Part shown: positions 18,101 through 38,670 of the stretch, one piece after another | Position numbering within the stretch: the first letter of the stretch is position 1 | Layout: the number at the start of each line of letters is the position of its first letter | Assembly (NCBI GenBank): GCA_973851085.1 | Contig: OZ316775.1 | Location: 12,524,001 to 12,588,000, forward strand | Source of the DNA: Ptychomitrium polyphyllum | Taxonomy: Eukaryota | Direction: 5' to 3' | Length of the DNA stretch: 64,000 nucleotides | The notes under the pieces: generated by a model | Told to the model about the DNA's origin: nothing | Seen by the model: only the letters and a program-made list of their open reading frames with translations | The model's database searches: none | Translations under genes and position numbers: made by a program

Positions 18101-20765
18101 TGTAATTTGATGACTCATGATTACTTGTTGAGTGTTCCTGCAGTGTTTTACCATTGAATTGGACGGTAGGAATGCTGGGCACTCTTACGGGGTCCGTGGA
18201 AGATGCAGTCATCATGTAAGCTTTTGATTTGTTTGCCATTGTCATAACAGGGTTACACCCCAAACTCCATAGAAACCAAGGTTGTAAATAATCGATATTT
18301 AAGTTTAAATTCTTCAGGTTAATTGAAATTTGATATTGTAGGTATGCAGCAATGAACGGGTCTCTTCCACATGACGATATTGTGACCTTCCCGGTAAAGC
18401 CCTCATCTCCACGATTTTCTTTACAATTTTAATTCAACATTTTCTTCCTCTTCACGATAGTTCAGCTAGCACTAATTGGGTTTGTATGTTTTGCAGCCAC
18501 CTGCAAACTTGCCTCTCTTTAAAAGTTCAGATCCAGAGCTCAACAGCATCACACAGCTGATAGGAGATCTTAAATTTGCCAAGTACTCAAAGGTAGAATG
18601 AGCTTTTGACCATGAAGTTCGATGCTGAAGACAAAGCAATACTGAATGTTCTTGTTGTTTCGTGCTTCTTTTCTATGTATGTTCTCTCACCAAGAAAGTT
18701 AATTAAGGTTTTGGCTATTTGCTTTTTTGGGTCATTTTGCAGTGGTTCGATGATTCTGATGAACCTGTACGGAATGCATGCTATCGAGCATTGCAATTAG
18801 TACAAAGCTCCTTCAATACCAAGGTGAATAATCATATGTTCCTAGAATAATTGTTTTTTACATGTGACTTGGAATAGATATATCTTGCAATTCAGCGTAC
18901 TCTGCAAGTTCGTGGTGAGCTCCAGATAAAAGCATAGATGGATTGTGAATACTTCTAAATCAAATGGTTTTCTGTTGCTGGGTATATTTGATGCATCGTA
19001 GGTAGTGGAAGTGACCATTCCCGAGCTTGAAGAGATGCGGTTGTCACATTTTGTGACAATAGGCAGTGAAGTGACCACTTCCATAGGGGGTGACTATCGA
19101 AAATTGTAAGCCTTTCACAAGTCATCATCCTTTGTAGTTTTGTTTTCTTACAAATATAGGCTGTCTTGATTGATCTGATTATGATGTATTGACTTTGTTA
19201 ATGATTCACAGGGGAATTGACGCATCTGGTGCAGACGTGCGTGTTGGATTCTCCATTTATAATGGTTTTAACAACCGAGAATTCATCACTGCACAAAGGA
19301 TGAGGTACTATTGAGATCTTAGCTACAGTAAGCAGGTTACCTAGTATGTCCCACATTATGTATCAGCTTATCTCTCAAACGATATCGTTGCATTGTTTCT
19401 TCCAGGTTTCGGCAGATGCATTATCATTTCGAGATCTTCAAGAAGGCTGACATCATCATCACACCGACTACAGGGTGAGGCACAAGCTAGAACTCAGCAG
19501 ACTTGAGTCTTACAAGCCTCAGTTTTGGAATTTACATACGGTAGAATTTGAATTGGTCACAGCACCGAAGACGGAGTACGTATGATTAATTTATGATCAC
19601 ATTCTTTTGTAGGGCAACTGCACCACCATTACGAGGCAATGCTGAAAATTGCGGAGAACTAGACTACGTTATCGGAGGTAAAGCATCACGTATACTCGTT
19701 TGTTTAATCGTCATAGGACGAATTCAGCTTCGTTAACTGTCTCATATTAGTAGCTCTCAGATTGTGTGAAATTGAAGCAGATATGTATACACCGTGTAAC
19801 ATGGGAACCATTATAAATTTCGCATATTGCTTTCCCTTTCATACTTTTTTATTTGATGCACATCAATTCACGTTGAATTTTTTAAACAGTTGCAGAAAGG
19901 AACTTTGAAACTGGCCACTATTCCTAAGCTAGATATTGCTCTGTTGCAGCCAAGCTGATGCGTTTTCAAATCGCTGGAAATTTTCTGGGGTTGCCAGCCC
20001 TCTCTGTACCGGTACGTTCACTTTCCAATAGTTGCTCGCCCCATTTTGCACGTTATTTCAAACCAAGTACTCAAGAATGGTTTTGTTGTTACCCAATATA
20101 TTCTCGATTGACACTTCTTCTAAATTTACTCTTTTCTATTGTACAAGGAAAGTTACTTTGCTTGGAAGAAGGTTTGAAAAGGACGATAGCGTCAACCTCA
20201 CTTCTGTTAACAAGTTAACTTGTTCTCACTCCCACCAACATTGTTATTGTACTCAGATTGATTTTGTGACTTGGCTCAACTAATCGCGTGAAATTGGGTT
20301 TCCAGATAGGACATGATGAGGATGGTTTACCAATCGGGTTGCAACTCATCGGCCGTCCATGGTCAGAAGCTACACTTCTGCAAGTGGCAGCTATTATTGA
20401 GGTTTGCACACTTTCTTGCTCATTCTTTCAGTTTGGGGCCTGTTGATATGTATTGAGCTGCATGGTATTCATCAACACCCAAGTAGGAGAATCACACAGA
20501 CTCTTCCCTGCAAAGGTGAATAATATGAACCTTTAATTTGCAACAGTGAATTTCTAAACTTGTTTAACTACCCCTGATGAAGTGAAGTTATATCACATAA
20601 ATTTATACCCGTATGTTTAGGACTTCAGCCTAATTTTGAGTTCGGCACGTATCAGGTGTCTGTACTTATATGCGTACTAATGGATAGGTTGGGCTGTCAT
20701 GATTACAGAGACTCTGTGCCCCGTATCGACGACAACCAGAGGTGTTATACGATCTCATCTTATAG
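15159..20765 (+). CDS. FAAH: Fatty acid amide hydrolase (amidase-signature family), multi-exon
   Basis: Exon 1 (15159-15249, MVASEAEG...VTVR) splices to [10 protein letters not shown]...LKKDNLITK. Later exons give [27 protein letters not shown] (catalytic Lys), [55 protein letters not shown] (Ser-cisSer), [12 protein letters not shown] and [19 protein letters not shown]. The last exon 20709-20765 reads [18 protein letters not shown]. Colinear with plant FAAH. Confidence 0.93.
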
Positions 20766-22025
20766 CATTCTACGCGATACTGAAATCAGAAGGTCCTGCC
20801 GTGGCTTTTCCAACTTAGTCCTGTTGCCTAAAAAGCTTCGTAATAGAAGCTGGTTTTCAAATTTCTTATTGCATAGCTCTGATATTGGGTTCGCAAAATT
20901 TTGCCAAAATTTTGGCCATTAACTTTTAGGCTCTAGGAATGTGATAGAGGTATGCATAAACGATTCTCGAGGTTATACAACTGGGATCACGAATATACAG
21001 TATCTTGACCACATCAGCAGTGACTTAATGCGGTAATGACATCCTGCATGAGACTGACATTAGGCACCTGAGATGCTCTTTTCTAAGAATACTGTAGGAA
21101 AAGGATGGACGAAAGGAAAGGAAGCATTTTCCCTTTGCAACTTAATGTGAAGTATACCGTAGCGTTGCATCTCGACTAAATATGTGGCTAGCTTTACTAT
21201 AATTGGGTTATATTTCGTATTGGGATACACTTCAAAAAAACTGCTGGTTCAGAGTCTTCAAACGTTACTTTGACGAAGGAATTTGAGACTCAGGAATTTA
21301 TTACTTGTTCTTACGATGCCAATACGACAATAAGCCTTTCACAAATAGGATGATTACCGTAAGGCCTGCTCAATGAATGTAGTAAGTGGTCATACCAAAG
21401 GGTGAGATTTTTTGCTGTGATTCATACCTGATACCTCAGGTTATTCGAGTGGCCATGTGTTTGGTATCAAGGTTTGAATAAATTCAGTTACAGCAGGGGA
21501 GGAGGAGCAGTGTAACTGCCTCACCTCGACCCTTCCAAGGCACATTGTACTCCCTGGTGCTAATCGCTCTTCATGTAGACATAACTTGGTGAAATAAAAG
21601 AGGCTTGAAACTTCGAAAGTACTTCAACATTCAACATCATTTATTAGCCAAGCCTGTCTCAAGTGAGTAAAGCTGTTCGCTTCACCTACTTGTATGCATC
21701 ACTTGATGCATCGGCACATGAGAAAGTATCATAACAAGCCATACTACACTTGAGAATTACTAGATTACATTATCATGGTTGCAAATCCGGCTTAACAAGA
21801 GCTAATGAATTCTTCTTTCCAAATGATCTAGGCTGCAAGAGGCTTGATACCACAGAGACAAAACCTCAACTTGAATGCCCTCCGGAAGACACTCTAATGT
21901 GAACTATCGAAAGGCCAGAAACGTAGGGCTGGTTCAGGACCATAAAAGAACAAAGGGGTCCATCATTACAGGCGTTCTACAATTTCGGTAGGTAAAAACA
22001 TTTTACCTCTTCCTTTTCGGAATGC

Positions 22026-24566
22026 TCATATTTCATACAAAGTACTAGATAGTCGTGGAGTGGCTCTCAAAGTCAGAGGCATTGACCTGAAACAGACGAG
22101 CCTCGATGACTCCTGGACGTCGTAGTCGTGAGGAAGTTGCCCTTTGATTGGCGCCCAATCGAAGCCTTGCACGAGGTAAGCCAATCCCAGTTGCAGCAAA
22201 CTAATTCCAAGATTTGCCCCGGGGCATCCTCGGCGACCATACCCAAAGGGTAAAAGCTTAAATTTGTCTATTTGTGATGCTGCGTCTGTACCTGTAAACC
22301 GCGTCGGATTGAAATGGAGCGGATTCTTCCATATTTCAGGATCACGTCCAATGGCTGCGTAGTCAATTACCACGGATGTGTTTGCCGGGATTTCGTACTG
22401 ACCAATTGGAGTTGCGACCTTGTTCATGTGCGGGAGTGACATGGGCACTGTTGGGTGGAGTCGGAGGGTCTCTTTCACAATTGCCTGCACGTCAGCCAGT
22501 TAAAGTCTGAGTAGTTTTAAAAGAAGAGACAACGTCTGGTAATAAGACAACAACCATATTAGAGTTATTAGAGCCAACCTAACAACCTACAAAGACGACT
22601 GATCTTAAGCGGCAACCAAATTCACTTTAAGAATCCAGAAAATACAAGTTGAATATTAAAACTGTCCAACATTTGATTGCCGCCTAGGAAGATCCAAAAA
22701 CATGCTAGAAGACTCACCTGGAAGAGAGAAAGCTGAGAAAATTCGGTATTATCTACGATCTTGTACGGACCGACAAAATCGGCCATTTCCATTTGAACTC
22801 TCTCCAGCAGTGCAGGGTGGCGAACAAGCTCTATAAGAGCCCATTCTATAGTAGCGCTGATTGGATATACGCCTCCTATCAAAGTATCCTGCAAATATGA
22901 ACTCAGCATCCGTCAATGTCTTGTGTGAAGATCTTAAGAACAGATACTAAGGAATAAGAGCCAACAAGGGTGCATACCAAGAGAATGCCCATGATGGCTT
23001 CGTTGGAGAGTTTGTCATCCTCATCTAGTGACAGCAGGACATCCACAAGAGCCTCTGGTTCTCCTTTGTCAAAGCGGTGGGAACGATCTTCAAGAATCTC
23101 TTGAAAATATGCTTTGAGACGTCGATGCAAGTCCTTCATTTTCTCTTCTCGACCACACAAGTCCAGCCACTTTAGCCCAGGTGTGAAGTCGCACAACGTC
23201 ATCTCACCCGCCACAGAAATGGTCTCATCCAGCAACGTGGTCAAGGTGTCCCTGGTAAACTGGATGCTGATATTCTCGATGTCCAGATGTGCCGTGCCCA
23301 ACAACATCCCACATAAGCTGTTGCGTACAAAGGTGGTAACTGTCTCTCGAACAGAGATGTCCTCCCCTCTCTGGGAGGCCTCCCAAATAGAGTGCAACAT
23401 TTTCGCCGCTTCGTTCTTTTGAATGTGTAGATAAGAGTCAGAACAGTCTCGGGAGAATAGACGAGTGTCGCAGAGCTTGCGCAGACACCAATGATGGTTG
23501 CCTTCCCCAAATGCTATGTCCGTGAAATCGAATCCCAAGTGCTTTCCTGCTGAGCATCGCGGCCGAAAGTAAAACTCCGCGTCATGCGCAACAAGCACCT
23601 AGCATAATTTCCAAAACATAGTGCTCAGGATACTTCCATAAACCAAGAGTAATGAAAAGAAACTGTGCTGATGCAATCGAACTTCTAAACCCTAAACCCC
23701 TGTGATCAATTCCAGGCAAGGCAATGGAAAGCTTCACCACGAGTGGCAACGAATGACAAGAATAAACTTGAAAAGACTAATTGCACAGAAGGAATGGTCT
23801 AACATAATTTCGTATCGTTACGCAGCAGCTCGTGAGAACCGCATCATACTACTGTCTATGAATTACGAAAAGTAGTAACAGCTGACGAACTTCCTCAGAC
23901 TATGAGTTAAAAACTCATCCGCACAGATTCAGAGATACTGCTTAACAAAATTTGTGATCGGATATAGGAAGCTCCGCACAACGATGAAGCTGTTTTTTTT
24001 AGTGCTCAATGCTTACCACACGATTTGATCATAAATTCTCACTTGAAGAATTGCAGACATGCATCGAGGGTTCTCGCGACACAAGCTGAAATGCAGAACA
24101 CGAATTATCTTCTTCGGTCTGAAAGAAAGCAAGAAGAGAGACTAATAGAGAGAGGGCTTCCACTGACCTCCTTGGCAAGCTCCCCACTCGAAACGACCAA
24201 AATCGTCGCATCCGCGATTTGCAGAAACATGAGCGGCCCATGCTTCGTGGCGAGTGCGGTGACCTTCTCCCGCAATCTGGACGACGATCTCACACCCGCA
24301 GTCAGGACAAGCTGCGGAAGGCTGCCCAGATAAGGCCACTGGAAAGGCCCGGGCGGCAGCTTCGAAAGCCTCTCTTTCCGCTTGTTATACTGCTCGAAAA
24401 ACACCACCAAGAAAAACACCACTGCTGCCAAGATGTACAACGCCCGCCCCACGCCGGCCGCATTCAGATCCCATCTCTGGTAGCTCTCCACCTGCGCCGT
24501 CATCCACGCCCTGGCCTCCTCCGTTAGCTGCCTTGGCACCCTCCCCGATCCCATCACCTGCGCCAT
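22026..24566 (-). CDS. Cytochrome P450, CYP71 clan (A-type), 4 exons, atypical I-helix
   Basis: Exons 24566-24168, 23598-22978, 22888-22718 and 22484-22026, all joined by GT-AG phase-0 introns. It has a membrane anchor, the LPPGPFQWPYLG hinge, K-helix KETLRLHP, FNPTRF (PERF equivalent) and heme motif PFGYGRRGCPG. The I-helix reads IGGVYPIS. Confidence 0.93.
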
Positions 24567-26388
24567 AACTCCGCAATAAAACTCCCTCCTTCCCCTCCCC
24601 CACACCTCACACGCACTCCCGAATTCAACCCCACCTCCCCGTCGGGCTTATGATCTCACCGCATCCCCAAAAAGCCAAAACTCACGACACCCCTGTCAAA
24701 AACCACAACAGCCATGAGAAACCACGATTCGGTTCCTGTTCCTCGACCACAGGACACGGAATCACGCCAAGCTTCGAAATAGATGAATGTTTCGCATTCT
24801 GTTTCACACTTTTTGAATGGGGGTTCAAAAGAGATGGTCTGTGATTGCGTAACAGAACAAGAAAGTCTAGTACGGCGATATGTGCGCTGTCTGTGCAAGA
24901 TTCGGCCGACCCTCTCGGAGTAGAACATCAGCGATGAGCGATTATGTCGGAACAGTCGCGAAGATTGGGGCTTATTCACAACGTGGGACTTTAGGAAAAT
25001 TCTATAGGCAGCATCTCCGGATCTTTCCACAAACTCGGACGAAACGATTCAATTCTTGTTTCCCCGACCCTCGTGTAGTTCATTTCTACCTTTTCTATGC
25101 TTTATCAAATGCAGGTGCCGCTTGCCATGACTTAGAGACTTCAGTTGCACATCAGATTCCAAGCCGAATCAAGAGGAAGGAAATTGGATCCCGGGCTCGG
25201 AGGCTGGCACGAGCAGGTCTCTTACATTGGGGCATCGGCTCGTTAAAGCATTGCTTCACATCATACAAACCTATAGGTTTTAAAAAAAGTACTGTACACT
25301 CCACAAGAACAATCAATCCATGATAGGATCGCACCCAAGGAATGAGCAGACTGGAGACATTACCAAAACCCTGAACCTCTACTAAAGGCTCCATCCACGT
25401 CCACTTCATTCAATCCTTGCGGTAAGGGAATCAAGACCATACAATTACTGCAAGGATATCGCATTGCAAACGTTTAATCTCACCTCAAAGCTCTTATATC
25501 CAACCACTTATTCACGCTCTGGTCCTCTATTGCAAAATCATGATACTTGTGGATATTCACAACAATGGCACCATTTCAAACTGTACAACCATTTTAGGTC
25601 TACTGCCACTACAATAATAACTAAACTGCACAATAAACTGAATCTAGGGCAACTTCTGCTGATATAGCTAGCAGAATATCCAAACAAATATCCATGCCTG
25701 CTGCAGAAGACAAATATGATCTTCGTACACTGTTGTGACATAGCAAAGCTGGCGTTACAAACCTCGCTGAATCTAGTCAACCAAAAATTTGTTACCCGCC
25801 TGCTTGGATATTCTTGAGGGGCTCATGTCGCAAGTAGAGCTGCGAAGTGTTATAAATACCTGAAGCAACATATGAATGCCGTGGTCAATAACCAGCTCCA
25901 GGTATGAAGCTCAGTAATGTTATCTTTCAGAAACCACTACATTTACAAATTCACTCAGAAGACAAGTCACATACTTAAACTACCACACTAAGTTCATGAA
26001 TTAGCAAGTAGAAATTAAGCCGCATCAGCAAAGATTTAATAACCAAAAACTTTCAAGTACACAGCTTCAAAGATGATGACAGATGATCGTCCTAATCAGG
26101 TGACCTACCTCAGAACACCATAGGATAATCATTAAAAAATGCCTCCCTACAGTACGGTCCTGAAATCAAAACGACAGAAAACATCTACTCACCCCACGGA
26201 ATTCCAAGTAGGTGTTCTTCAATTGTGTTGCCAGAACTACATCCTCCAAATATACCATAGTCCAAGTATACCCCCCAGGGGCAGCACTATATGTCCTGCG
26301 CCAGTACCACGCATTTCTCCTGGGCTCCCATACAGGTACTGACAGCCGCAGCTGGTACACATGTTTGAAGTATCACATTCCCTGGCAA

Positions 26389-27814
26389 TTATATGACAAT
26401 GTTCATATCCAAGTCATCTATAAAGACCCTCCCCATATGCAAGTCATCATGATGTCGAACACACAAGGGAATGTGTTTCTTGTTCAAAGCAGATTGCACC
26501 GCCTTGATGCCCTCCAGAATCTGTGCTTCTCTAGCTGACCGAACTTTGTGCCGTCCACCCGCCCTCTCAATTTGTCTAATATGGTGCATCTCCACATGGC
26601 GTTCGTGACAACCCTTTACTGCACACCTCTCCGCAAGTAGCCCCTTCCGAACCATCCGTGCAAACAGCATGTCGATGAGTTCCTCAGGAGAAGTTGGGTC
26701 TAGATCCACAAGAAACTTCTTCTTATAGTCACTAATCTCCGTGGGGCTTAGATACGCAGCCAGCGTTTTACCCTCCTTCGAAATGACCAAGCTTTTGGTA
26801 TGCTTGGCAATGATCTGACTTGAGCTTGACTTGTGCTTCTTCGCAAGAGTGTAAATAGCTGACCACCGGAGTAGATAATTCACAATAGATCTCACTTTAA
26901 TGAGGTTATCGCAAAACGAGTGGTACCTCAAAAGACCAATTGCAATGCTTCGGTACCATGCGACAATCCGGTAATCATCCTGATTAGCCACTTGATCAAT
27001 TGGCAAAGGTCTCATCTTCACATCGATAAATCCCTTCTTCTGAAGTAACTCGTACAGAAGCTTCACGGGAGCTTCCAATAGAACAGGGGCTTCAAACGGT
27101 CTAACCGTGAGATGTTCCTCGCTAGGGTCATCGCCTTCCAAATGGGAATCATGCTGCGCAACCATAAGCAGCATCCGCGTTTTAAGAGCGTTTTGAAAGA
27201 AAGGAGAATTACCCTGATTCGACACAACCGCCCCTTTCTACCCTCAATCACACATTGAAAACCTAAAAATACATGCTCCTAAGAAAAATCCGAATTCCGA
27301 AACAAAGAAACTCATAGGCTACTTTGCGAACAACTCAACCTGTATATCTCGGTTCTCATCTGTATGAATTCATGAACTCACTCGTGATTCTGGAATCCCA
27401 GCAGGTCGTCTTCCCACTCGAGCTGCTGCAACGTCAGTGTACATCGACCGCTTCACCCCTCCATCCCACGACCTGCTCCACTCACTTCCACATTCCGACG
27501 CGTCGTCACTCCCAGAAACGTTGCTCAAATCCCGCCCCAGCAACGTCAACGCACCCGAGCTCAACGGAGCTGCCGCCTGCCTTCCCCACATTCAATGCAC
27601 CAACTCCGCCACAACCCATCAGCACCCCTCGCTCTCACACCCCTAAATCCTAAATCCTAAACCCTGAACCCTAAACCCTCGAAGGCCCAAACGAAAAAAA
27701 AAACATCCACGAACCCTAACAGTGCACACCAAAGAGCGGCAGGACGAGCACCTGTAATGGAGGCAGCAACGACGATCGCCGCAGCAGCAGCCTCGCAGCC
27801 ATCGCCCTCGCCAT
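26389..27814 (-). CDS. Nuclear-encoded matR-like group II intron maturase lacking the RT domain (domain X plus C-terminal Zn/HNH-like domain) with a mitochondrial presequence; predicted 3 exons, about 360 aa
   Basis: Exon 3 (27213-26389) reads EAPVKLLYELLQKKGFI...DDYRIVAWYRSIAIGLLRYHSFCDNLIKVRSIVNYLLRWSAIYTLAKKHKSS...EGKTLA. This aligns by eye to matR domain X (EAPIKKILRRLRDRGII...CDNLYQVRTIVDHQIRWSAIFT.AHKHKSS...GKTLA). The tail is CAVKGC...VEMHHIR...HIPLCVRHHDDLH. Exon 1 (27814-27752) encodes [21 protein letters not shown]. Exon 2 (27576-27382) joins in phase 0 with GT/AG sites. Confidence 0.85.
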
Positions 27815-27847
27815 GGCCACAGCAAATCGGAAAACCTTGTGAGTGCA
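27381..27847 (-). repeat. Left copy of an inverted duplication (5' UTR, presequence exons 1-2 and intron 1); partner at 31659-32052
   Basis: The reverse complement matches 31659-32052. Exon 1 is 61/63 nt identical, and the exon 2 peptides are 51/65 aa identical. Confidence 0.95.
27641..27679. promoter_or_regulatory. Interstitial telomere-like / telo-box array (CCCTAAA variants, about 5 copies) in intron 1 of the maturase gene
   Basis: ccctaaa tcctaaa tcctaaa ccctgaa ccctaaa ccct; the plant telomere heptamer is TTTAGGG. Confidence 0.65.
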
Positions 27848-28683
27848 GCGCAATGAGCGTCTCTTGCTCCCCAAGTCCCCGCTTCAAGAGGACCCTAGAG
27901 CCTACCCTATTGCCGTTGGACCCCCTTCAATCCAACAGGGATCCCAGTTTTTCCTGTATCATGGTTTCTCATGCTTTTCCTTGGAGATGTGCATGGGCTT
28001 TGCCATCATGCACTTTGAAGATTCCACTAGTAGCTAGCTAACGTTGCTCTTCGTCAGAAAGCAATTGAGAACAATATCACCCAGCCAGGAGAATACCACA
28101 TCTTCTATTTCGCAAGTAGCTGGGGAGCACATGTAGTTTGTCTGCAGAAGCTCCTAGGCTGTTATTGGAATGTTTTTATAGTACTTAAGGGATTCCTTAT
28201 TTTTAGATTCAATAGTTGTGGATTTTTAGAAGAAACGTTTCCTTTCTAGTTATTTTTAAATTTTTTCAAAACCAATCTTTGAATATCTTGGGATTTCTGG
28301 AAAGAGGGGTTAAAAGTCCTGTGATGACGTGTGGAGACGTGTATATTCAAGATCAACAATGCCATTTTGATGCCTCGAAACAAAAAGGCAGGCAGTTAAT
28401 TGCTAGAGCTAAAACATGGTGCAACTGGATTTTTCCATAAATGATGCAAGAGAAGTTTATAAGTTTACAAAGTCATAAACGACATTGGTCTCAAAACAAC
28501 TGAATTTTAATGTAAATTTGACAAAGCCTTGTAATATAATGCACAAGTAAACAATATATTCTGTTAGATTAAAAGCATTGATGTAAAAAAAGTTGTCATT
28601 ACTGTAACATTTGAAAATATGAACGAAGTATTCACTAAACATTCCAATGTCAATTTAGCAAATATGTCGTCAGTGTCTCAAGA

Positions 28684-31274
28684 CTATCTTGTCACCCGAA
28701 CAACCAGCCTGTTCTTCTTGCCTGCAGAAAGTAGAAAAATCTTTTCATCTATAATATCCTCAGCTACCATGGCCTTCCCTTCATCTTCCACCTTCTTGTT
28801 GTTCAAATAAAGACCACCCTGGCAACAGCACACATCCTCACCACTGAGTATTTTACTAGAACTCAAAATCATCAAGAAAACATTACACACCCACTAAGAA
28901 ACATTAGTGTACCCTATGCAAACTGTTTGGAGAAAAAAATCATTCGGATGTATGACCATACCAGGCTTTTAAAACAGAATGTACTATTCACAATACAAAT
29001 GCTCGATTGAAAGATTGAATTCGATACCTGCTTAATCAAACGTCGAGCTGCAGCTTTGCTTTGAACAAGCCCTGTGTTGACACTCAAATCGACCAGAGTT
29101 GTGTCCACCACAGAGGAGTAAGAAACAGAACACGATGGAACGTCCTGAGCAATGGCCTCCAAGGCTTGAGAGTCCAACTCAGCAGCTGCCCCGGGTGCCA
29201 AAGCTTGCGTGGCTTTCAGGGCTTCTGCTAAACCCTGCTCTCCGTGGACAAACCGGGTCACTTCTTCTGCCAATCTTTTCTGTATTGAGTTTGGGGCATA
29301 TCCTGGTCGTCCCATGCTGGATTCCAGAGCTTCAATTTCGTTGATATCAACAAAGGTGAGTCGCTTCATAAACCTGATTACGTCTGAATCAGGTACGGCA
29401 AACAAGAGTTGATAAAAATTATAAGGGGAGAGTGCTGACGAGGCCAGCCAAATTGCACCACTTTCAGACTTCCCGAATTTGGTCCCATCACTCTTGAGTA
29501 GGAGAGGAAACGTAAGACCATAAGCTCCTTCTTGTTGAAGCAACCGTCGAACTAAGTCTGTCCCTGCTGTAATGTTACCCCATTGATCACTCCCACCAAT
29601 TTGTACAGAAACTCCCTCCTCCTGTAGTAAAAACAATCCCATGAGAATTTTACAAAAAACAAGATAGTACTAAATTCGCTTCAACACCAATGCATGCTTA
29701 ATAAAAATAGAGGCTGTTCATATTGGTACCTTGAAGAGATGCACAAAGTCGTATCCCTGAAGCAACTGATAAGTGAACTCCGTGTAGCTCATGCCTTCCT
29801 CTGAATTTAGCCGTGTTTTCACACTTTCCTTCGCCATCATCGTCCCAACTCTTGCATACTTGCCAACGTCCCTTAAGAAATCCAACAGGGAGAATTCCTT
29901 CCACCAATCATAATTGTTAAGAACAACAGCCTTTGCATCCGCACCGGAGTTCACCTGTCAACGTAGTGCCAGATCATGAAGTGCAGAACCAGGATATACC
30001 ACATTAAAAATCACACAAATGCACAATTCCACACGTCAAATATTCCTGCTATTTAAAAGCGTTTGAAAATTTGCATGAAATCCAAACAAGTACCTCCAAT
30101 ATTTTTGCGAGAATCTCGCCAATTCCATTTGAATTCCTGGCTATCGTCTCATCATCAAGCACAGGTCGTTCTTTGCTCTTTCCCGAGGGGTCCCCAACTC
30201 GAGCAGTGGCGCCTCCAAGCAACGCAACTGGGATATGGCCACACCTACACGACAGAATCAGCACGAATTCACCTCAACATGACCACAATCGAACGCTCAA
30301 ACTCCTCTCAACACACTCATATCTACTGAAGAGTACACTCAAAACCCTCCAACACTTCTGCTGACATAACTTGTTACATCACCATCTCTTCAAACAAGCC
30401 GTGAACACGGAACCTTAACCATTCATGAATTTAGAACCCGTTTCTATTCATTATACTGTCAACCACAAACATAACCCCTAACCCCTAGCTAGTACACCAC
30501 TTAGTTATAACTCAGGAGAACAAGTATTTCAAAACAACTTGCTTAAGCTAAGTGAAACACATTGGTAGTGATAAATCAGATAGGTCTGCCATGAGAAGAT
30601 GCAGATCTCCTCAATTATAATCTCACTAACTCATCAAATGCAAATTCGTTATCCGAGACGGAATCCAATTGCGGGGGACAAGAAAACCAGGCATTGCAAG
30701 CAGCAGGACATATCGAGACTCTCGAGAACGAAGTAATCGAAGCTTATCTAGCTCGGAGCAAGGGAGAATGAGATTGATTGGGTCTTGTAACAAACCATTC
30801 GAGAATTCAAAACCTTCCAATAAAACTCAAAGAGTGTGTAATATCAAACCAAGCAAGAGCAAAGCGTACACACCTTTGGAACCACGAGAGCACAATGATG
30901 CCCAGCAAGTTGCCCAAATGCAGCGACTCCGCCGTGGGGTCGAACCCACAGTACACTTTGAGCCGCTGCTTCATACAAGCAGAACGCAACTCCTCGCTCG
31001 TCACGGACTCAATCAACCCTCGCTCCGCCAAAACGTCCACCACATTGCGCGACACGCCTTGCATTGCCACACCCATACACGTTGCCGTGGACAGAGGAGA
31101 CGCGGAGCACGACACCGCGCTTCCCCGCGGCACGCACAATCGACGAGCGACATAGCTTGCGTCCAGAACCTTCACTCCAGCACCAGGTCTCGCAGCAAAC
31201 GCGAGCGACCATAGTCGCAGAGCAGGCCCGCAGGTGTGCGCAAGGCATTGCGACAAGCAATGCCCCGAGGCCAT
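28684..31274 (-). CDS. tyrS: Organellar (bacterial-type) tyrosyl-tRNA synthetase, 5 exons, with N-terminal transit peptide
   Basis: Motifs [15 protein letters not shown] (HIGH), [38 protein letters not shown] (KMSKS) and a C-terminal S4-like domain ([14 protein letters not shown]...SAGKK). Exons 31274-30874, 30244-30094, 29954-29730, 29621-29028, 28818-28684. Confidence 0.96.
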
Positions 31275-31691
31275 GTCGAGGGCGGACACAAAACTTCCAA
31301 TCCTTCACAACCTCTTCTTCCGAAGAACCCAAATCCGAAGAAACACGAGTGCTGTCATCTTTTCCACATTCAGATCGATGTTCGTCGAACATTTGCAAAC
31401 GGGCACCGAAACTCGTCATCGCCGGTAATAAGTGACGATATCCTCTTTTTTAGGGCTTCCTCCGTTAATCGTTCGTTTTATGATGGTTTTCTAGGGTGTC
31501 AGTTTTCAGTCCTGTTGGTGGGACCACTAACTGAGGTGGATTCACTGTTTTGGAAATGCGAGACCATCCCCGCTCCAGTTTTCTGACGAAGGTGTTTTTG
31601 GTTCGGTAGGCAGAGACCATTTGAGGTCACTTCACCTCAGTCAAAGGCCACACCTTGGTGCACTTACGAGGTTTTCCGATTTGCTGTGGCC
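31275..31691. promoter_or_regulatory. Probable bidirectional promoter between divergent tyrS and rps10
   Basis: The start codons at 31274 (-) and 31692 (+) are head-to-head and only 417 bp apart. Confidence 0.6.
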
Positions 31692-32052
31692 ATGGCGAGG
31701 GCGATTGCTGCGAGGCTGCTGCTGCGGCGATCGTCGTTGCTGCCTCCATTGCAGGTGCTCATCCTGCCGCTCCCTGTGTAGGGTTTAGGGTGTGAATGCG
31801 AGGGTGCTGATGGGTTGTGGCAGTGTTGGCTTGGGGACTGCAGGTGAGCGAGCAGCCGAAAGCTCCGTTCAGCTCGGGTACATCGACGTTGCTGGGGCTG
31901 GATTCGAGCAACGTTGCTGGATTCGACCACGCGTCGGAATGTGGAAGTGGGTGGAGCAGGTCATGGGCTGGAGGGGCGAAGCGATCGATGTACACTGACG
32001 TTGCAGCTGCTCGAGTGGGAAGACGACCTGCTGGAATTCCAGAATCTCATGT
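31659..32052 (+). repeat. Right copy of the inverted duplication (presequence exons of rps10)
   Basis: Matches the reverse complement of 27381-27847 and ends at the exon 2 donor (GAATCTCAT|gtaagc versus GAATCACGA|gtgagt). Confidence 0.95.
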
Positions 32053-32692
32053 AAGCAAATCTATCTGAGGACAAACAAACTCAGCAGGTTTCTTCTCCAA
32101 AACTCTTATTTGATATTTGTAGTCCTCGTAGACTGGTTGGAACATGATTAGGGTTTCCTCTACTTGGACTAGAGGGCATCTTCTCAATAAATTTGTTTCT
32201 GTTATTCGAACATGCCGTCAGAACTGTACCAAGTCCTGGCAATCTGAGTATGTCCAGGCTGTAACTTAGCAGGTGGATGCACTTGATGGCATCGAAGAGA
32301 TGGCCGCGGGCTCCGGAGCAACCGCCAAAATGTCTATAGTGTTGAAGTCATTCGAGAAGATCCATCCAGGGAAGTTAAAGAACGTCAGTAAAGTGGGCTT
32401 GCCAACAACGCGAATCCTCTTCACTTTCAACCGATCTCCTCATGTGGACAAGAAGGCGCGAGACCAGTTTGAGATGAAAACACGGAAGAAGCTTCTAGTC
32501 ATGGATATGGATGTTGGGAAGCTACGGGAGAAGTACAACCAGCTGAAGAACAACAACATGTTGGGCGTCCAGCTCAAAGTGAACTTTCATTATAAAACTC
32601 GACTGGACATGAGCAGGATTAAGGGTCATGTCACGCTGGCAACGGTCGTGGAACAGTGTGAGGAACAAAGGCAGATCGAAGCAAAGCAATGA
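31692..32692 (+). CDS. rps10: Nuclear-encoded mitochondrial ribosomal protein S10 with acquired presequence, 3 exons
   Basis: Exon 3 (32273-32692) contains KMSIVLKSF...[29 protein letters not shown]...[16 protein letters not shown], the plant mitochondrial S10 signature RSPH.DKK.R.QFE. Exon 1 (31692-31754) encodes [21 protein letters not shown]. Exon 2 is 31856 (or 31844)-32050. Introns are phase-0 GT-AG. Confidence 0.92.
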
Positions 32693-33831
32693 GATGAGAG
32701 CTTCGAAGGCCTCCTCTGAGCTCTCATCAGTTCACAGATTGGAGCGAATGATTTGCAGGTATACATGAAACTACTGGAGATTGAATACTTTGGTCTTCAC
32801 TGCAGCAAAATATTCACTTGCTGTTCAGCATAATCAGGTATCTGGCTTTCAAGTCTTTGGTGCATCCATATAGGACATTTTTTTGAAGATTAGGAGTAGA
32901 AAAAGAGCCGCAGTTAACCTTGAGGATTGATTTGTTTGGTTCTTTAGGTGTCATCAATTGGATTGTAAAGCATGCCCAGATGCTTAGAACAGATACTACA
33001 CTTGGTGTGCATGAAGTTGGTTCTCAAGATTACGATAAACATCAATTCAGTCTAGTTTCATGTTTGTGTTGTTGTGAGTTTCAATGGTTTGATCGAGCCT
33101 TTCCAGTTGCTGGTTTTTATGTTCTATCCTATATGTGATAATGCCTTTGTTGGCATAGTATATTTAGCCGTTTTCTTTGTTGTGATGGTTGTTTGTCAGC
33201 TGTCAATTTCGTAGATTCTGTCGAATGTGCATATATGTGCGATGTTTACTGCTGGTTATGTTTCACATTGAAAATTTACAGAGCTCTTGAACTCTGCCTT
33301 GGCATTGCAGAAGCATAAGTAGTTGAATTTGTGTACACCTTTCTCAACTCTGACTCCCTTCTGCATTGCGAAACCTTCCTTTTGCAACACTGTTAGATTC
33401 GTTTACCAGCATACTACTGAACGTAGATCACTGTTAGGATGGAAGGATTAATGGAAACTTCAACCTGGGAAGAGCGAGCATGACGGTGTAGGGAATAAGT
33501 TTGTTTCGCGTAGTTGTGTTTAACAGAGTTTTCAGTTCCCAAGAGCCAGTTGTTCAATGTATCATGCTTGGGCGTGCACCACGTAGAAGCAGTTTTCATG
33601 TGGTAATTTATTGGCAAACTGAAGGTTCTTTGACGGAAAGTTTGGTTTTACGGAGAAAGTTCAACTACCAAACTTTAGTAAACTGGGAAGCATTAGCCTA
33701 ACCCGGCAAACTTCTTTAATCTTGACACCATCAAGTACTGTGGTGAAGAACAAACTGCATTTAATTAACTTCAATATTACTTATTACATTCAAAACTCCT
33801 CATTTGCCTATTAGACTAACTTGTTGCCTTG

Positions 33832-34000
33832 AACTCCTTTACCTAAGCCTATACAACCACTAACTTGTAGAACTTGCTCCAACTCCTTTACCTAAGCCTA
33901 TACAACCACTAACTTGTAGAACTTGCTCCACTAACTTGTAGAACTTGCTCCAACTCCTTTACCTAAGCCTATACAACCACTAACTTGTAGAACTTGCTCC
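33832..34000. repeat. 49-bp tandem minisatellite, 3 perfect copies plus one 22-bp partial
   Basis: Unit aactcctttacctaagcctatacaaccactaacttgtagaacttgctcc at 33832, 33881 and 33952; partial actaacttgtagaacttgctcc at 33930-33951. Confidence 0.95.
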
Positions 34001-34851
34001 ACAGGAAAAAAAATTATATATATGTGTGGTTTTTCCAAGAAAGGAACAATTCTCTCTTGATGTGACACCCCAGACTATACCACCACTAACGTTGCCACCT
34101 TCATGATGATTTTTTCTCACTTTGGACCTTGACAGCCCCACGTCACCTTCCAATCCCTTGCAAGATCATTCCAACTGGCGTGAACCTCTAAGTTTCAGGA
34201 TCTTACACAAGAAGTCCAGCATGCCATCCTATTTAGGCTAAGTCACACAAACTCAGCAATCTCAAGCTCAAACTACACCACCCGGTGAGGTGCCCCTAAA
34301 AGCCACAAAGGGAAAACTTTTTGAAACGCCACTCAAGGTGGACCTTATCGCATGAGCGAGGGCAAGGCGAGGGGCTCAGGTGGTCACGGCTGAAGCTTAG
34401 CACACGGCGCCCCTTCAGTTCTGTGGAATGTGGAATCAATTTGCCGCGGAAGGGCCCGTGCGGTGTTGGCTAGGCTATGGCCACTGCAGGTCTCCATACC
34501 ATCGCCCTTGCCCGGAGAACGTTTCACGATTTTCATTGCATCCCGCCACACAAGTGACTCGCACGCGAGCCTCCACCACACTGATTTCTTTCTTACTTGT
34601 AGCATGCACTTGCTGATTGCTTACTGCTTTCTTGCGTTCCTTATGTCGACATACCTGCAAACACACCTCTCTCTGTGACAACTAAGTTAAGTAGAGCGAA
34701 TTGACATGGCGTAGATCATTTTGTTGGTCATTGCTTAGCAGTGTATGCATCTCCGAGAAGATATTGAAGAACGAAAGGCAAGGCAGGGGCTTATGAGGGC
34801 GCGAGCGAGCCAGCTAAGGGGAGAGTGATGTGGGGTCGTTAGGGATCTTCA

Positions 34852-37800
34852 ATGCCTCCAGTCTCTAGTTTGGTGGGACCTTGCGGTCGTCGATCAAGTA
34901 AATCAGCTCTGCAATTCGGAATTTGTGTAGCCAATGCAACATGGGGACATCACCTGCAATACAGGTGGGCTGCTGCATGTTCGTTGGAATGGAGCTTCAG
35001 ATGGAGTAGCTCTCATCAGCTGAGGAGTAAATGGGTTGTCGATCGAAAACCTCCTGCCACCAGGCGGGGGACAAAATCAACAGTGAAGGGGAGACATGAA
35101 ATTAAGAACAGAGAGTCTGCTTCGCATGTGGCACTTGCACCATTTGGAGGCTCTGCACCTTATTATTCCAAAGTACGCACTAGTGGGCGGGGGCAGAGAG
35201 CGCGGAGGGATACCCCTGGAAGCGCACCATTCCAGAGGGAAGAGGAGGACAAGAGCTCTTCGGAGGCACCGGAGAATGAGTCTGGCAGCCGGGGCTTGAC
35301 AGCTCGGAACCTGGTTGGGACGTATGCCGCGAACACAGCATTGGCAGTACAGGAGTCTCTTCCGCCGGAGGGAGTGATCGTCTTGTTGGCGTGCCTTGTG
35401 GGCGTTCTCACGGGTGGCAGTGTCGTCCTCTTCAATCTTGCGGTGAGCTGTTGCTATGTGTCCCACTCATCTTCAATTCCTTCTGTTAATTGATTTGGAT
35501 TTCAAGCTCCAGGACCTGCGCATGAATCAGTCTTATGTTAGTCAATCCGGGACCCCGGGCAAGCTCCTAGTATTTCATCTTTTTCCCGCGGCGTTTTCTA
35601 AATGGGGGAGGCTTTAGGGTTTTAGCCTGTGTGGAGATGAATGATGGTTTCATAGGGATGGCTGTGGTTGAGATTTAGGTACACAGGATCCACGATGATG
35701 TGTGGGAGGGAATCCCGGAAAGCGGAGCTGCTTGGTTGCGAACACGGCCACTGAACGAAACTTGGGTGCGACTCTTGGCGGTGCCATTTGGGGGTGGGGT
35801 GCTGGTGGGACTCCTTAACTCGATGCGCCATTCATTAGACAACGACACCAAGACTGACAAGTCTAAGGCAAAGGACAAATCCTCCCGGTTGGATGATTTG
35901 CGTGGCGTTCTCCGAGCCTTTCTGAAAGCTGTAGGCGCTGCCGTCACTCTAGGAACCGGGTGCTCCCTCGGTCCTGAAGGCCCCAGCGTTGAAATTGGCG
36001 CCTCCATCGCCAATGGCGTGGGCACAATGCTGAGTAATAGTCGCGAACGCAAGCTGTCGCTGGTTGCTGCTGGCTCCGCTGCAGGCATCTCCTCAGGTTT
36101 AATTACTCAAATGCTCCTTCCCATCTACAACATTCGTTTTTATTTTATTTTCTTCTATTAGATGGACTGTTCTAGAAGAACTACTGCAAAGTTGGTCAAT
36201 TCAAAGATGTGCTGCATTGTCAGTGCTGCATTCTCTTTTGTATTTTGCCTTTGTAGAAGAGACGTCACATGTACTAACATCTTCGTCTGCTCGGGATGTC
36301 AGGGTTCAATGCGGCTGTGGCAGGATGCTTTTTTGCACTAGAATCAGTGTTGCGGCCTTCGTCCTCAGACTCGGCATCGTCGCTCACCACAGCCATGCTG
36401 TTGTTGAGCTCTGTTCTGGCTAGTGTCATTTCGCAGGCTGGATTGGGGTCCGACCCTGCATTTAAGATCCCTGCATACGACTTCCGCTCACCTGCTGGTA
36501 TACTCGACCTTCACCTGTGAATTTTGCTGGACTACAATTCTGCACCAAAAAAAGAGATTAATACATTATTGTGTGTGTATATTTCCAACATTAGTCTACA
36601 GCGTCATTAGAGTAGGCACAATCTGCAACCTGTGAACATTTATAATGTGATTTGAAGCTTAGAGATACAGCTGTCTTTGCAAAGACACTATAATCGTTGT
36701 ATATTCGTGTGTAATGAAACAGAACTTCCGTTGTACCTGCTGTTGGGAATCCTTAGTGGCAGTGTGTCAGTGACTCTTGTCAAGGGGAGTGCATATGCAA
36801 CAACCTTGTTTGAGAATTTGAGAAGAACCACCGGAATTCCGGCAGGCTTCCTGCCACCAGTGGGAGGGCTGGCAGTGGGCGTGATTGCGCTGGCATATCC
36901 GGAAATACTGTACTGGGGCTTTGAAAATGTGGACGTTCTATTAGAATCACGCCCCTGGGTGCGAGGTCCGTCGGTGGAATTGCTACTGCAATTGGTTGGG
37001 GTTAAAGTGATTGCAACTTCGCTGTGTCGCGGTTCGGGGTTGGTGGGCGGGATGTATGCTCCGTCACTGTTTATTGGAGCTGCATTGGGGTCAGCATATG
37101 GAAGCATTGCCAGGAATGTCTTCGTACATGCCGATCCTGCGTTCCATTTGGAATGGCTCAAGGTCGCTGCCCCTCAAGCCTATGCATTGGTAAGTTATTA
37201 AGGACTGTTAACTTCGTTAAATGCACCTTTACTTTATTATTATTGATGCTGCATTGCAATCTTTGAATGTCACGGCTATGAATGTAGACACTAGCTGCTG
37301 ATAGTGCGCATTACGGCCATGTGCAGGTGGGCATGGCAGCCATGTTAGCTGGAGTATGCCAAGTCCCACTCACATCCGTCTTGCTTCTGTTCGAGCTTAC
37401 TCGAGATTACCGTATTATTCTGCCTCTCATGGGTGCAGTAGGTCTATCATCCTGGATTGCATCCTCGTTCATCAAGAAAAAGAAACGCTCCTCGAAATCT
37501 GAATCTGCCCTTCCGTTGCCATTGTCTGCACCTGTCTTGCAACCTCAGCCAGGCATCGCATTTGAATCTTCTTCTGTGCTGTATCCCAATGCTCCCAGCC
37601 AACAGAGTCTCTTGAGCAGTAGTGTCGTAGGAAATGAGGGTCTTCAAATCACCTCGGAGGAAGGCCAAGAGCCAATGCTTCTGGCTTCGATGGAGATGAA
37701 GGTGGATGTTTACACGAACGACGGGAGTGCCGAAGACTTTGTGGAAGAGAAAGATTTGTGTAACGTTGATGAGTCCCTCTGTTTAGCAAATTTTGAGATC

Positions 37801-38670
37801 AGCGAAGAGAAGTTGGCAGAGGAGATACTGGTATCCATGGCTATGAGGACGAGATTCGCCACTTTGCCTCCAGAATCAACGGTGCGAGAGGCAATGTCAG
37901 CCATGGTGCTGGAGAAACAGTGGTGTGTGCTTCTGCTGGACTCAAATCGGCGCCTTTCAGGTCTTTTAACTTTGGCAGATATTCAGCAAGCTGCAGGGAA
38001 TGCTACAAGTGTCAATCTGCAGATGAAGGTTTGATTTTTTTTTCCAGAGAAGAGCCTCTTCTATATGCATGTCGTACTGTCAGCGTCAGTCTGTTCATAA
38101 CCATTTCTTATGGTGTGGAGATCATTACCGTTGCTTTGGACCCCCGACGCCTACTGTACGCCTGCAGCGGTGCGTACTGGGTCTTTGCAATCCTCATTTC
38201 TCTAAAGTAGAATAAGTTATTTTGTTTTTGCAGATAGAAAACAAGCTAGTGTCCACATTATTCAAGAGCAGGCGGCTGCAGCAAGTGGTAACAGCAACAA
38301 AAGACATGAGCTTAAGAGCTGCACAACATCTTATGGCACGGCGTGGATTGAGGCAAATCCCTGTAGTGGATGTTAGCCAACGAGTAGTCGGCCTCTTGGA
38401 CAGAGACTCCATTGCTCTTGCTTGCCGGTTAGAGCTCATTCTTCAATTATCAGTGGATGAGGCTTAGTGAACTGGTTCAACCTTTCACTTCATTGTAGTC
38501 TTAACTGTAAAATACCATGTTCTTAGGTGACAAGCCTTACAGGCATGACACTCGTGCCTGGAACTTGTCGCTGAGGCGTGTGGTTGGTTTGCAGGGCGGA
38601 GGCCACGCGCAGATTGTTGGGTCTTTCCCTTTGTACAACAGCATCGAAGGGCTCTAACGAAGGCCTTTGA
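34852..38670 (+). CDS. CLCe: CLC chloride channel, prokaryote-like CLC-e/f subfamily (closest to thylakoid CLC-e), with C-terminal CBS domains
   Basis: Motifs TLGTGCSLGPEGPSVEIG, AAGSAAGISSGFNAAVAGCFFALESVL, YDFRSPAELPLYLLLG, YPEILYWGFENVD, GLVGGMYAPSLFIGA and GVCQVPLTSVLLLFELTRDY, plus a CBS pair. Long Ser/Arg-rich N-terminal transit-like region. The last exon ends TGA at 38670. Confidence 0.9.

What the first reader, a model, noticed from the sequence alone, without database searches (positions are those of the whole stretch)
26389..27814. RT-less nuclear matR-like maturase (domain X plus Zn/HNH tail) with a mitochondrial presequence
Seen: an intact 274-codon last exon aligns by eye to matR domain X (CDNL..VR.IV....RWSAI.TLA.KHKSS...GKTLA). 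It is followed by a C-x4-C...HH...LC-x2-HH-x3-H tail typical of the D/En region of group II intron-encoded proteins. No RT motifs precede it; the only upstream coding exons are a presequence. Known: matR sits in mitochondrial nad1 intron i728, angiosperm matR lacks the En tail, and nMAT1-4 keep an RT-like domain. In Pelargonium, nuclear matR was split into separate RT and X genes. Inference: this is an independently transferred, split or truncated maturase that may act in trans as a mitochondrial splicing factor, perhaps with a separately encoded RT half. It could preserve an ancestral En-bearing form of matR.
Basis: partly seen in the sequence, partly recalled or inferred. Interest (0 to 1): 0.9.

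Follow-up and report, generated by a model that had tools for sequence, protein, structure and literature searches.

The report
Moss RT-less maturase from atp1 intron
This moss nuclear gene keeps only the maturase (domain X) and zinc/HNH-like end of a mitochondrial intron protein, most likely came from the decayed gene inside the moss-only atp1 intron rather than from matR, and is predicted to return to mitochondria to help splice that intron.

Summary
The gene is real; the matR label is wrong. The window is moss nuclear DNA. The minus-strand gene has two leader exons and a last exon with domain X (Pfam E 3.7e-17) and a Cys/His HNH-like tail, and no RT. Orthologues run from Sphagnum to Ceratodon under purifying selection (dN/dS 0.06-0.12).

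Its closest mitochondrial relative is a stop-ridden maturase remnant inside the moss-only intron atp1i1127g2: 45% identity over 205 residues, ending at the same codon. Trees join the two (95/89) and reject a matR origin (p-AU 2e-5); the moss's own matR remnant groups with matR.

A second moss nuclear family (domain X only, no tail) comes from the same intron lineage. The leader exons are a near-copy of those of the rps10 gene 4 kb away. The last exon is probably 254 codons, not 274.

Best reading: a trans-acting splicing factor for the atp1 intron (inferred, untested). Nuclear maturases are known in Physcomitrium, and its orthologue may already be catalogued there. I found no paper naming this donor intron.

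The parts
27752..27814 (-). Exon 1, 21 codons: Arg-rich, acid-free start of a predicted mitochondrial presequence
   Evidence: GT donor, in frame; 4 Arg, 0 Asp/Glu; 61 of 63 bases identical to rps10 exon 1; homologous N-terminus in Ceratodon P0002
27577..27751 (-). Intron 1, 175 nt, GT-AG, with telomere-like CCCTAAA repeats at 27641-27679
   Evidence: partly alignable to rps10 intron 1 (78 of 89 aligned bases)
27382..27576 (-). Exon 2, 65 codons: rest of the leader, with a conserved R-S-M-Y/H-T motif that may be the processing site (inferred from recalled cleavage rules)
   Evidence: 171 of 195 bases identical to rps10 exon 2; for the motif in P0002 and P0013
27154..27381 (-). Intron 2, preferred form, 228 nt, GT-AG (alternative acceptor at 27214 gives 168 nt)
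   Evidence: not confirmed by RNA
26389..27153 (-). Exon 3, 254 codons plus stop: acidic linker, domain X, D region, En-like tail
26794..27081 (-). Domain X (thumb), Pfam PF01348 match
   Evidence: E 3.7e-17; model from a 66-sequence alignment, pLDDT 85.7; Foldseek best hit group II intron RT 8h2h_D, E 1.6e-4; VIA Z 7.5 to 6me0_C and 6.2 to 6zym_A
26437..26625 (-). Zn/HNH-like tail, C-x4-C...EMHH...PLC-x2-HH-x3-H
   Evidence: Cys, HH and HH columns invariant in 18 of 18 rows; last His is Gln in 4 of 18
31692..32050 (+). Second, inverted copy of the leader exons (31692-31754, 31844-32050), serving the nuclear rps10 gene
   Evidence: 95.6% over 114 nt; 84.5% over 271 nt; (an 82-nt contig shared by both copies at raised depth)
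32273..32692 (+). Ribosomal protein S10 exon, bacterial type; read as mitochondrial rps10 from a recalled motif
   Evidence: PF00338, E 4.5e-10; PRK00596, E 2.1e-11, below its cut-off
28684..31274 (-). Organelle-type tyrosyl-tRNA synthetase gene lying between the two leader copies (context only)

Best explanation
The gene encodes domain X plus a Zn/HNH-like tail without any RT, most likely descends from the maturase of the moss-only mitochondrial intron atp1i1127g2, and is predicted to be imported into mitochondria to help splice that intron in trans. Steps: (1) In early mosses the 3' part of the intron's reading frame reached the nucleus and gained leader exons (inferred from trees and gene structure). 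(2) The mitochondrial copy decayed by stops, frameshifts and a deletion of about 1 kb through RT4-7 (shown in L015). (3) The nuclear copy has stayed under purifying selection from Sphagnum to Ceratodon (shown). (4) After import and leader removal (predicted), the basic thumb domain would hold the intron RNA in its active fold, as domain X does in full-length maturases (recalled), so that atp1 mRNA for ATP synthase subunit alpha is made. (5) The tail likely serves as a zinc-held nucleic-acid-binding or structural module rather than for mobility, since no RT is attached (inferred). A tail-less sister protein from the same intron lineage may share the job. Confidence in the origin is about 0.9; confidence in the splicing role and target together about 0.6.
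For: Remnant in the atp1 intron of moss mitochondrial contig L015: 93 of 205 residues identical, E 2e-46, tail included; both frames stop at the same codon; still about 69-72% alike as DNA over 108-161 nt. Removing L015 8812-10717 restores an unbroken Atp1 frame of 518 codons; Rfam finds the group II domain V-VI end at 10616-10681. Exon 1 is 1142 nt, which is position 1127 if five extra N-terminal codons are subtracted (the Marchantia start is recalled). Tree of 76 rows: this family plus the two remnants 95/89, with the tail-less family 100/100 (bootstrap not fully settled); on domain X alone 99/94 and 96/100. dN/dS 0.075 (window vs L001), 0.058 (L001 vs L002), 0.12 (L002 vs L004) against about 0.62 for two broken copies. 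P0048 maps in four blocks on L003 and L005, as a spliced transcript would, and runs from leader to domain X without RT. The intron is listed in moss mitogenomes without an intact ORF (PMC5654404 table; PMC13662536 table). Precedent: nuclear genes similar to the decayed mat-atp9i87g2 in Physcomitrella (PMC7049729 passage).
Against: No experiment shows import, RNA binding or splicing. Nuclear maturases of flowering plants act on subsets of several introns (PMC9321910 passage), so donor need not equal target. The protein lacks RT0, thought to give intron specificity (same passage). The tail is the best-conserved part against Sphagnum (63 of 78 identical, against 51 of 73 in the X core) and keeps the motif of intact algal intron proteins, which a pure splicing role does not obviously need. 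No member of this family from Physcomitrium came up, although that moss keeps the intron. Whether this species' own mitogenome holds the intron was not established. Only one remnant (L015, with its identical piece L012) has a known host intron; P0061 is assigned by likeness (66%).
Confidence: 0.6

Rival explanations
1. Same origin, but the protein has become a general mitochondrial splicing cofactor acting on several maturase-less moss introns (for example nad1i728 and nad4i461), with atp1 only one target or none.
For: nMAT1-4 act on subsets of introns, and matR persists after loss of its host intron. Loss of RT0 would remove the usual specificity module. One sequenced moss mitogenome has 22 group II introns and only two intron ORFs.
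Against: Physcomitrium has about ten nuclear maturases falling near different donor introns (supplementary tree text), which fits a one-donor, one-helper pattern. No target data either way.
Confidence: 0.22
2. The tail is a live HNH nuclease. The protein is the X-En half of a split intron protein that works with a separately encoded RT, or acts alone on mitochondrial DNA in nicking, recombination or repair.
For: The tail is as conserved as domain X or more (40 of 78 columns invariant, against 37 of 73 in the X core); it has the same Cys/His pattern as intact Coleochaete intron proteins P0055 and P0059; Atlas neighbours are AI2M-like HNH domains. Pelargonium shows that a maturase can be split into two nuclear genes.
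Against: The last His is Gln in one whole lineage (P0006 group). The sister family has lost the tail (0 of 57 fetched members carry the motif). No RT half was found among fetched proteins, though none was searched for genome-wide.
Confidence: 0.12
3. One reading: a nuclear, split or truncated matR that preserves an ancestral En-bearing form.
For: 46% identity to a lycophyte maturase over 119 residues; the donor lineage lies in the same broad part of the tree as matR.
Against: AU tests reject this family plus matR (p 2e-5; p 2e-61) and, more weakly, the whole atp1 lineage plus matR (p 0.013). The moss nad1i728 remnant is 58% identical to the lycophyte maturase and 43% to this protein.
Confidence: 0.03
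4. A recent NUMT or pseudogene that happens to lie behind duplicated rps10 leader exons.
For: The leader exons are a young duplicate (dS 0.16, dN/dS 0.65); broken nuclear copies of this family exist elsewhere (L009-L011).
Against: Intact frame, low dN/dS, orthologues across mosses, the same leader on the Ceratodon orthologue, no DNA likeness of the window to L015 at E 1e-4, no Rfam match in 20000-40000.
Confidence: 0.03

Closest known systems
Physcomitrium nuclear maturases (Guo and Mower 2013, seen only as cited; mat-nuc1 to 11 in the supplementary tree of PMC10012718)
   Same: Moss nuclear genes derived from mitochondrial intron maturases, proposed to act in trans; two are described as similar to the decayed mat-atp9i87g2. 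The pair mat-nuc9 (Pp3c13_4900) and mat-nuc10 (Pp3c2_31660), printed with 100/100 next to the matR superfamily, may be this family and its tail-less sister.
   Different: That match could not be checked. No atp1i1127 maturase appears in the text of that tree, and the paper lists atp1i1127g2 as a solitary moss intron. In what I could read, neither this donor nor the RT-less X+En build is stated.
Pelargonium nmatRX (PMC5174742)
   Same: Nuclear, mitochondrially targeted C-terminal part of a mitochondrial maturase.
   Different: nmatRX derives from matR, keeps RT subdomains V-VII, and has a known partner gene nmatRT. This protein derives from another intron, has no RT subdomain, keeps an En-like tail, and spans Sphagnum to Ceratodon.
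matR (mat-nad1i728g2)
   Same: Homologous domain X, 46% over 119 residues; same broad maturase group.
   Different: Different clade and host intron; matR has a degenerate RT and lacks En (PMC3927076 passage).
nMAT3 and nMAT4 (type II nuclear maturases)
   Same: Nuclear, mitochondrial, domain X followed by D/En.
   Different: They keep an RT-like domain, have aberrant En, and group with family F10. The F10 representative in my trees (P0059) lies apart from this family. Named nMAT sequences were not in my trees.
LtrA and other full-length group II intron proteins
   Same: Residues match LtrA 368-575 (X, D, start of En) by profile and by fold.
   Different: No RT, free-standing, nuclear, with spliceosomal introns.

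Membership tests
Group II intron maturase (domain X) proteins | Domain X / thumb | tested here: met
   PF01348 E 3.7e-17 above cut-off; LtrA match
Group II intron maturase (domain X) proteins | RT domain in front of X | tested here: not met
   No hit of eight full-length proteins outside exon 3 in the window or in 8 related loci; no RT BLAST hit in 44 + 57 fetched family members, which were however found within a length window too short for a full RT
Group II intron maturase (domain X) proteins | Promotes intron splicing | not testable with these tools
   Needs knockout or binding assay
matR (mat-nad1i728g2) and its nuclear derivatives | Groups with matR in a maturase tree | tested here: not met
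   p-AU 2e-5 and 2e-61; matR labels on unnamed rows are mine, from a recalled motif
matR (mat-nad1i728g2) and its nuclear derivatives | Closest mitochondrial relative lies in nad1i728 | tested here: not met
   atp1-intron remnant 151 bits against nad1i728 remnant 54 bits
Derivative of the atp1i1127g2 maturase | Forms a supported clade with the intron remnant | tested here: met
   95/89, 99/94
Derivative of the atp1i1127g2 maturase | Remnant lies inside a group II intron of atp1 at position about 1127 | tested here: met
   one mitochondrial contig (L015) and its identical piece L012
Nuclear maturases nMAT1-4 | RT-like domain retained | tested here: not met
Nuclear maturases nMAT1-4 | Orthology with nMAT1/2 or nMAT3/4 | tested here: inconclusive
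   No named nMAT sequence was in the trees; the F10 representative P0059 falls apart from this family
Mitochondrially targeted protein | Cleavable N-terminal presequence that directs import | tested here: inconclusive
   Arg-rich, acid-free N-terminus, modest hydrophobic moment 0.46, shared with rps10; no targeting predictor or import assay available
HNH endonuclease (En domain of intron proteins) | Cys/His and HH motif pattern | tested here: met
   Atlas 0.93 to AI2M-like HNH
HNH endonuclease (En domain of intron proteins) | HNH fold | tested here: inconclusive
   Model shows two strands and a helix in the tail; fold searches barely tested that part
HNH endonuclease (En domain of intron proteins) | DNA cleavage | not testable with these tools
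   Needs a biochemical assay
Split maturase of the Pelargonium type | A second nuclear gene encoding the RT half | not testable with these tools
   No genome held

The most novel reading that the evidence does not exclude
Mosses took apart the retroelement protein of a single atp1 intron and kept two RT-free pieces in the nucleus, one with a still-active HNH nuclease tail and one without. The pieces would act as a pair, or with a separate RT gene, as a minimal trans-acting maturase: a natural test of what the thumb domain alone can do in group II splicing, and of why an endonuclease outlives intron mobility.
Probability: 0.15. Interest if true: 0.8.

Novelty: new variant of a known kind. Interest (0 to 1): 0.5.

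Why it matters
It gives a donor, and so a likely target, to a moss nuclear maturase family, and shows that an intron listed as solitary once carried a full RT-X-En protein. Ceratodon carries both families and Physcomitrium at least the tail-less one, so knockouts can ask directly whether domain X without any RT supports splicing, a question that also bears on the Prp8 thumb. The strong conservation of the En-like tail without an RT is unexplained. The leader shared with the neighbouring rps10 gene is a clear, young case of targeting-exon reuse between two genes of mitochondrial origin.

Tried and rejected
No RNA holder was listed for this stretch; this says nothing on expression. The two listed runs behave as DNA of one sample. 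A search for longer homologues (444-2000 aa) found none, weak evidence by the tool's own note. The first metagenome scan found nothing; the repeat with an alignment gave 18 loci. The first structure model, from 18 close sequences, was poor (pLDDT 45) and was not used. Pfam gave no HNH hit for the tail alone, and the fold searches listed no HNH protein; neither excludes the fold. The Atlas search with the tail-less paralogue gave only hits under 0.9.

Homology of the L001 upstream exon to the leader was tested and is not significant (59 of 1000 shuffles as high); the Sphagnum orthologue has a different leader in four exon blocks. One transfer followed by duplication versus two transfers is unresolved: the two nuclear families as one clade gave p-AU 0.031 with the tail and 0.25 on domain X alone. 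A sister relation of the atp1 lineage to Coleochaete mat-cobi399g2 is neither shown nor rejected (p 0.35); grouping with the cox1i44-like rows is rejected (p 5e-5).

Complex prediction for the two paralogues was not available, so pairing is untested. Whether this species' mitogenome keeps the atp1 intron remains open. The records behind the loci could not be searched. Gene identifiers of the candidate orthologues gave no paper. A weak NCBIfam hit (E 0.054, cut-off 800 bits) was taken as chance.

Full report
Observation. The minus strand holds an open frame of 282 codons at 26389-27237 with one Pfam match, Intron_maturas2, E 3.7e-17. Upstream lie two GT-AG-bounded exons, 27752-27814 and 27382-27576, that join in frame to either of two acceptors. 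No RNA was available to decide. Eight full-length intron proteins match the window only in this exon. The tail carries C-x4-C, E-M-H-H and P-L-C-x2-H-H-x3-H; the two Cys, both HH pairs and the third Cys are invariant in 18 of 18 aligned rows, the last His is Gln in 4 of 18. A profile of these 18 matches LtrA 368-575 (E 2.2e-7). A model built on 66 sequences is confident (pLDDT 85.7); its only Foldseek match under E 0.001 is a group II intron RT, and its best VIA matches are another intron RT (Z 7.5, rmsd 3.2, 110 aligned) and a spliceosome chain (Z 6.2), middling values. The tail alone resembles AI2M-like HNH clusters in the Atlas (0.93).

Organism and family. Of 12 hits of 150-480 residues, 7 are close orthologues at 63-90% identity, among them Ceratodon purpureus KC19_1G024300 (88%, 347 aa); the cluster of the 63% hit holds Sphagnum jensenii proteins of 373 aa. 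The window is therefore moss nuclear DNA; the species was not determined. My own Nei-Gojobori counts over 228 codons give dN/dS 0.075 (window vs L001, dS near saturation), 0.058 (L001 vs L002) and 0.12 (L002 vs L004, only 10 differences); window vs L002 is saturated; two broken copies give about 0.62 over about 97 codons. P0048 maps on L003 and L005 in four blocks, as a spliced transcript would, and leads from its leader into domain X with no RT.

Donor intron. The metagenome scan returned 18 loci. One, L015, is a 110-kb moss mitochondrial contig (genus not established) whose match lies inside an intron of atp1. Removing 8812-10717 restores an unbroken 518-codon Atp1 frame, Rfam marks the group II 3' end, and the insertion site is position 1127 after allowing for five extra N-terminal codons (reference start recalled). 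The literature calls this intron atp1i1127g2, 1128 or 1129, moss-only. The intron holds a broken frame with RT pieces, a gap of about 367 codons against Coleochaete P0055, and then X and En. It is 45% identical to the window protein over 205 residues (E 2e-46) and stops at the same codon. A profile search of 1.84 billion representatives found 1281 proteins at E 0.001 and listed 150; the best full-length ones are Coleochaete mat-cobi399g2 (42%) and mat-nad1i669g2 (37%).

Trees. I chose 76 rows by hand from the fetched proteins and loci, trimmed to the X-En region; subsets of 34 and 36 rows were used for AU tests. The labels 'matR' on unnamed rows and 'mitochondrial remnant' on P0061 are mine. 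The window's family groups with the two remnants (95/89) and these with a second nuclear family (100/100); matR rows sit in a separate clade with Coleochaete mat-nad4i461g2 (98/97) (bootstrap correlation 0.952, so values are rough). Family plus matR is rejected (p-AU 2e-5). With the tail cut off, and a moss nad1i728 remnant from the NUMT-like contig L016 added, that remnant joins matR (97/88), the family still joins the atp1 remnants (99/94), and family plus matR is rejected again.

A sister family. The profile search also found proteins with an acidic linker and domain X but no tail. A search with five of them gave 23 hits, among them Ceratodon KC19_9G160200 and Physcomitrium LOC112294667, with Sphagnum members in one cluster; the Physcomitrium protein is 54% identical to the window protein over 146 residues. 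Sphagnum and Ceratodon have both families, so both are as old as that split. Whether they arose by one transfer or two is unresolved (p-AU 0.031 and 0.25).

Shared leader. Exons 1 and 2, part of intron 1 and about 35 bases of 5' sequence recur inverted at 31692-32050, in front of a ribosomal protein S10 exon, with a tyrosyl-tRNA synthetase gene between. Exon 1 is 61 of 63 bases identical, exon 2 171 of 195; dS is 0.16. Contigs of both DNA runs collapse an 82-base piece of the two copies at raised depth, so both exist. The two leaders are 71 of 86 residues alike, against 47 of 79 and 53 of 83 to the leader of the Ceratodon maturase. The maturase therefore had this leader before the present pair last shared sequence: either rps10 captured it recently or conversion keeps an older pair alike. 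No other moss rps10 could be fetched to decide.

Mechanism. Shown: structure of the gene, conservation, selection, kinship with the atp1-intron remnant, decay of that remnant. Inferred: import into mitochondria, action in trans, the atp1 intron as target, a non-mobility role for the tail. The intron in L015 begins GAGCG and ends CTCG, off the usual group II consensus (consensus recalled), which may make it dependent on helpers. Against a simple picture: the tail is the best-kept region versus Sphagnum (81% against 70% in the X core), no Physcomitrium member of this family turned up, and angiosperm nuclear maturases serve several introns.

What is in print. I read PMC5174742 parts 1-2 of 4; PMC10012718 passages, section 28, and supplements 2 and 7 as text, the tree without reliable topology; PMC3927076 passages and section 12; and passages only of PMC7049729, PMC5654404, PMC13662536, PMC9321910 and PMC5457027. 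Guo and Mower 2013 is not held and may describe these genes. Nuclear maturases in Physcomitrium are known, two of them tied to mat-atp9i87g2, and the pair mat-nuc9/mat-nuc10 may be the two families here; I could not test that. Searches found no paper linking a nuclear gene to the atp1 intron, and none on the shared rps10 leader; the library lacks most subscription journals.

Verdict. A real, old, selected moss gene; a new variant of the known kind 'nuclear maturase from a mitochondrial intron', with the donor corrected from matR to atp1i1127g2. Interest 0.5.

Noticed in passing
window 31692-32692 (+): Nuclear rps10 gene whose two leader exons are an inverted near-copy of the maturase's; head-to-head with the tyrosyl-tRNA synthetase gene, start codons 417 bases apart. 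Three likely mitochondrial proteins are encoded within 6.3 kb.
   Followed up: partly
P0226, P0227, P0230 and relatives: Second moss nuclear family with an acidic linker and domain X only, from the same intron lineage, in Ceratodon, Physcomitrium and Sphagnum.
   Followed up: partly
L015 8812-10717: The atp1 intron starts GAGCG and ends CTCG, has a long domain VI, and still holds RT, X and En remnants although it is listed as a solitary intron.
   Followed up: partly
L009 7582-8287, L010 5526-6234, L011 9810-10485: Broken nuclear copies of this maturase family with stops and frameshifts, dN/dS about 0.62 in the two tested.
   Followed up: partly
L016 9183-10373: Degenerate mitochondrial-derived block (cox3, nad1 with nad1i728 and a matR remnant, cob) in a low-GC contig, probably a NUMT.
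   Followed up: partly
P0088, P0275: Unnamed protein with a long acidic, repeated N-terminal extension, RT and X but no En, falling in the clade that holds matR and mat-nad4i461g2; a candidate for a true nuclear matR-family maturase of unknown lineage.
   Followed up: no
P0164, P0166: Short acidic domain-X proteins that group with a cox1-intron protein (P0065, 98/98); possibly another RT-less nuclear maturase family.
   Followed up: no
window 27641-27679: Five to six telomere-like CCCTAAA units inside intron 1 of the maturase gene, mostly absent from the rps10 copy.
   Followed up: no
window 42900-64000: Cluster of nested, partly inverted LTR-retrotransposon copies with RT and integrase remnants, 80-87% alike.
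   Followed up: no
window 33832-34002: Perfect 49- and 71-base tandem duplications between rps10 and the chloride channel gene.
   Followed up: no
P0013: An orthologue on a 21.7-kb contig reads from exon 2 into exon 3 without a break, which suggests loss of intron 2 in that lineage.
   Followed up: no
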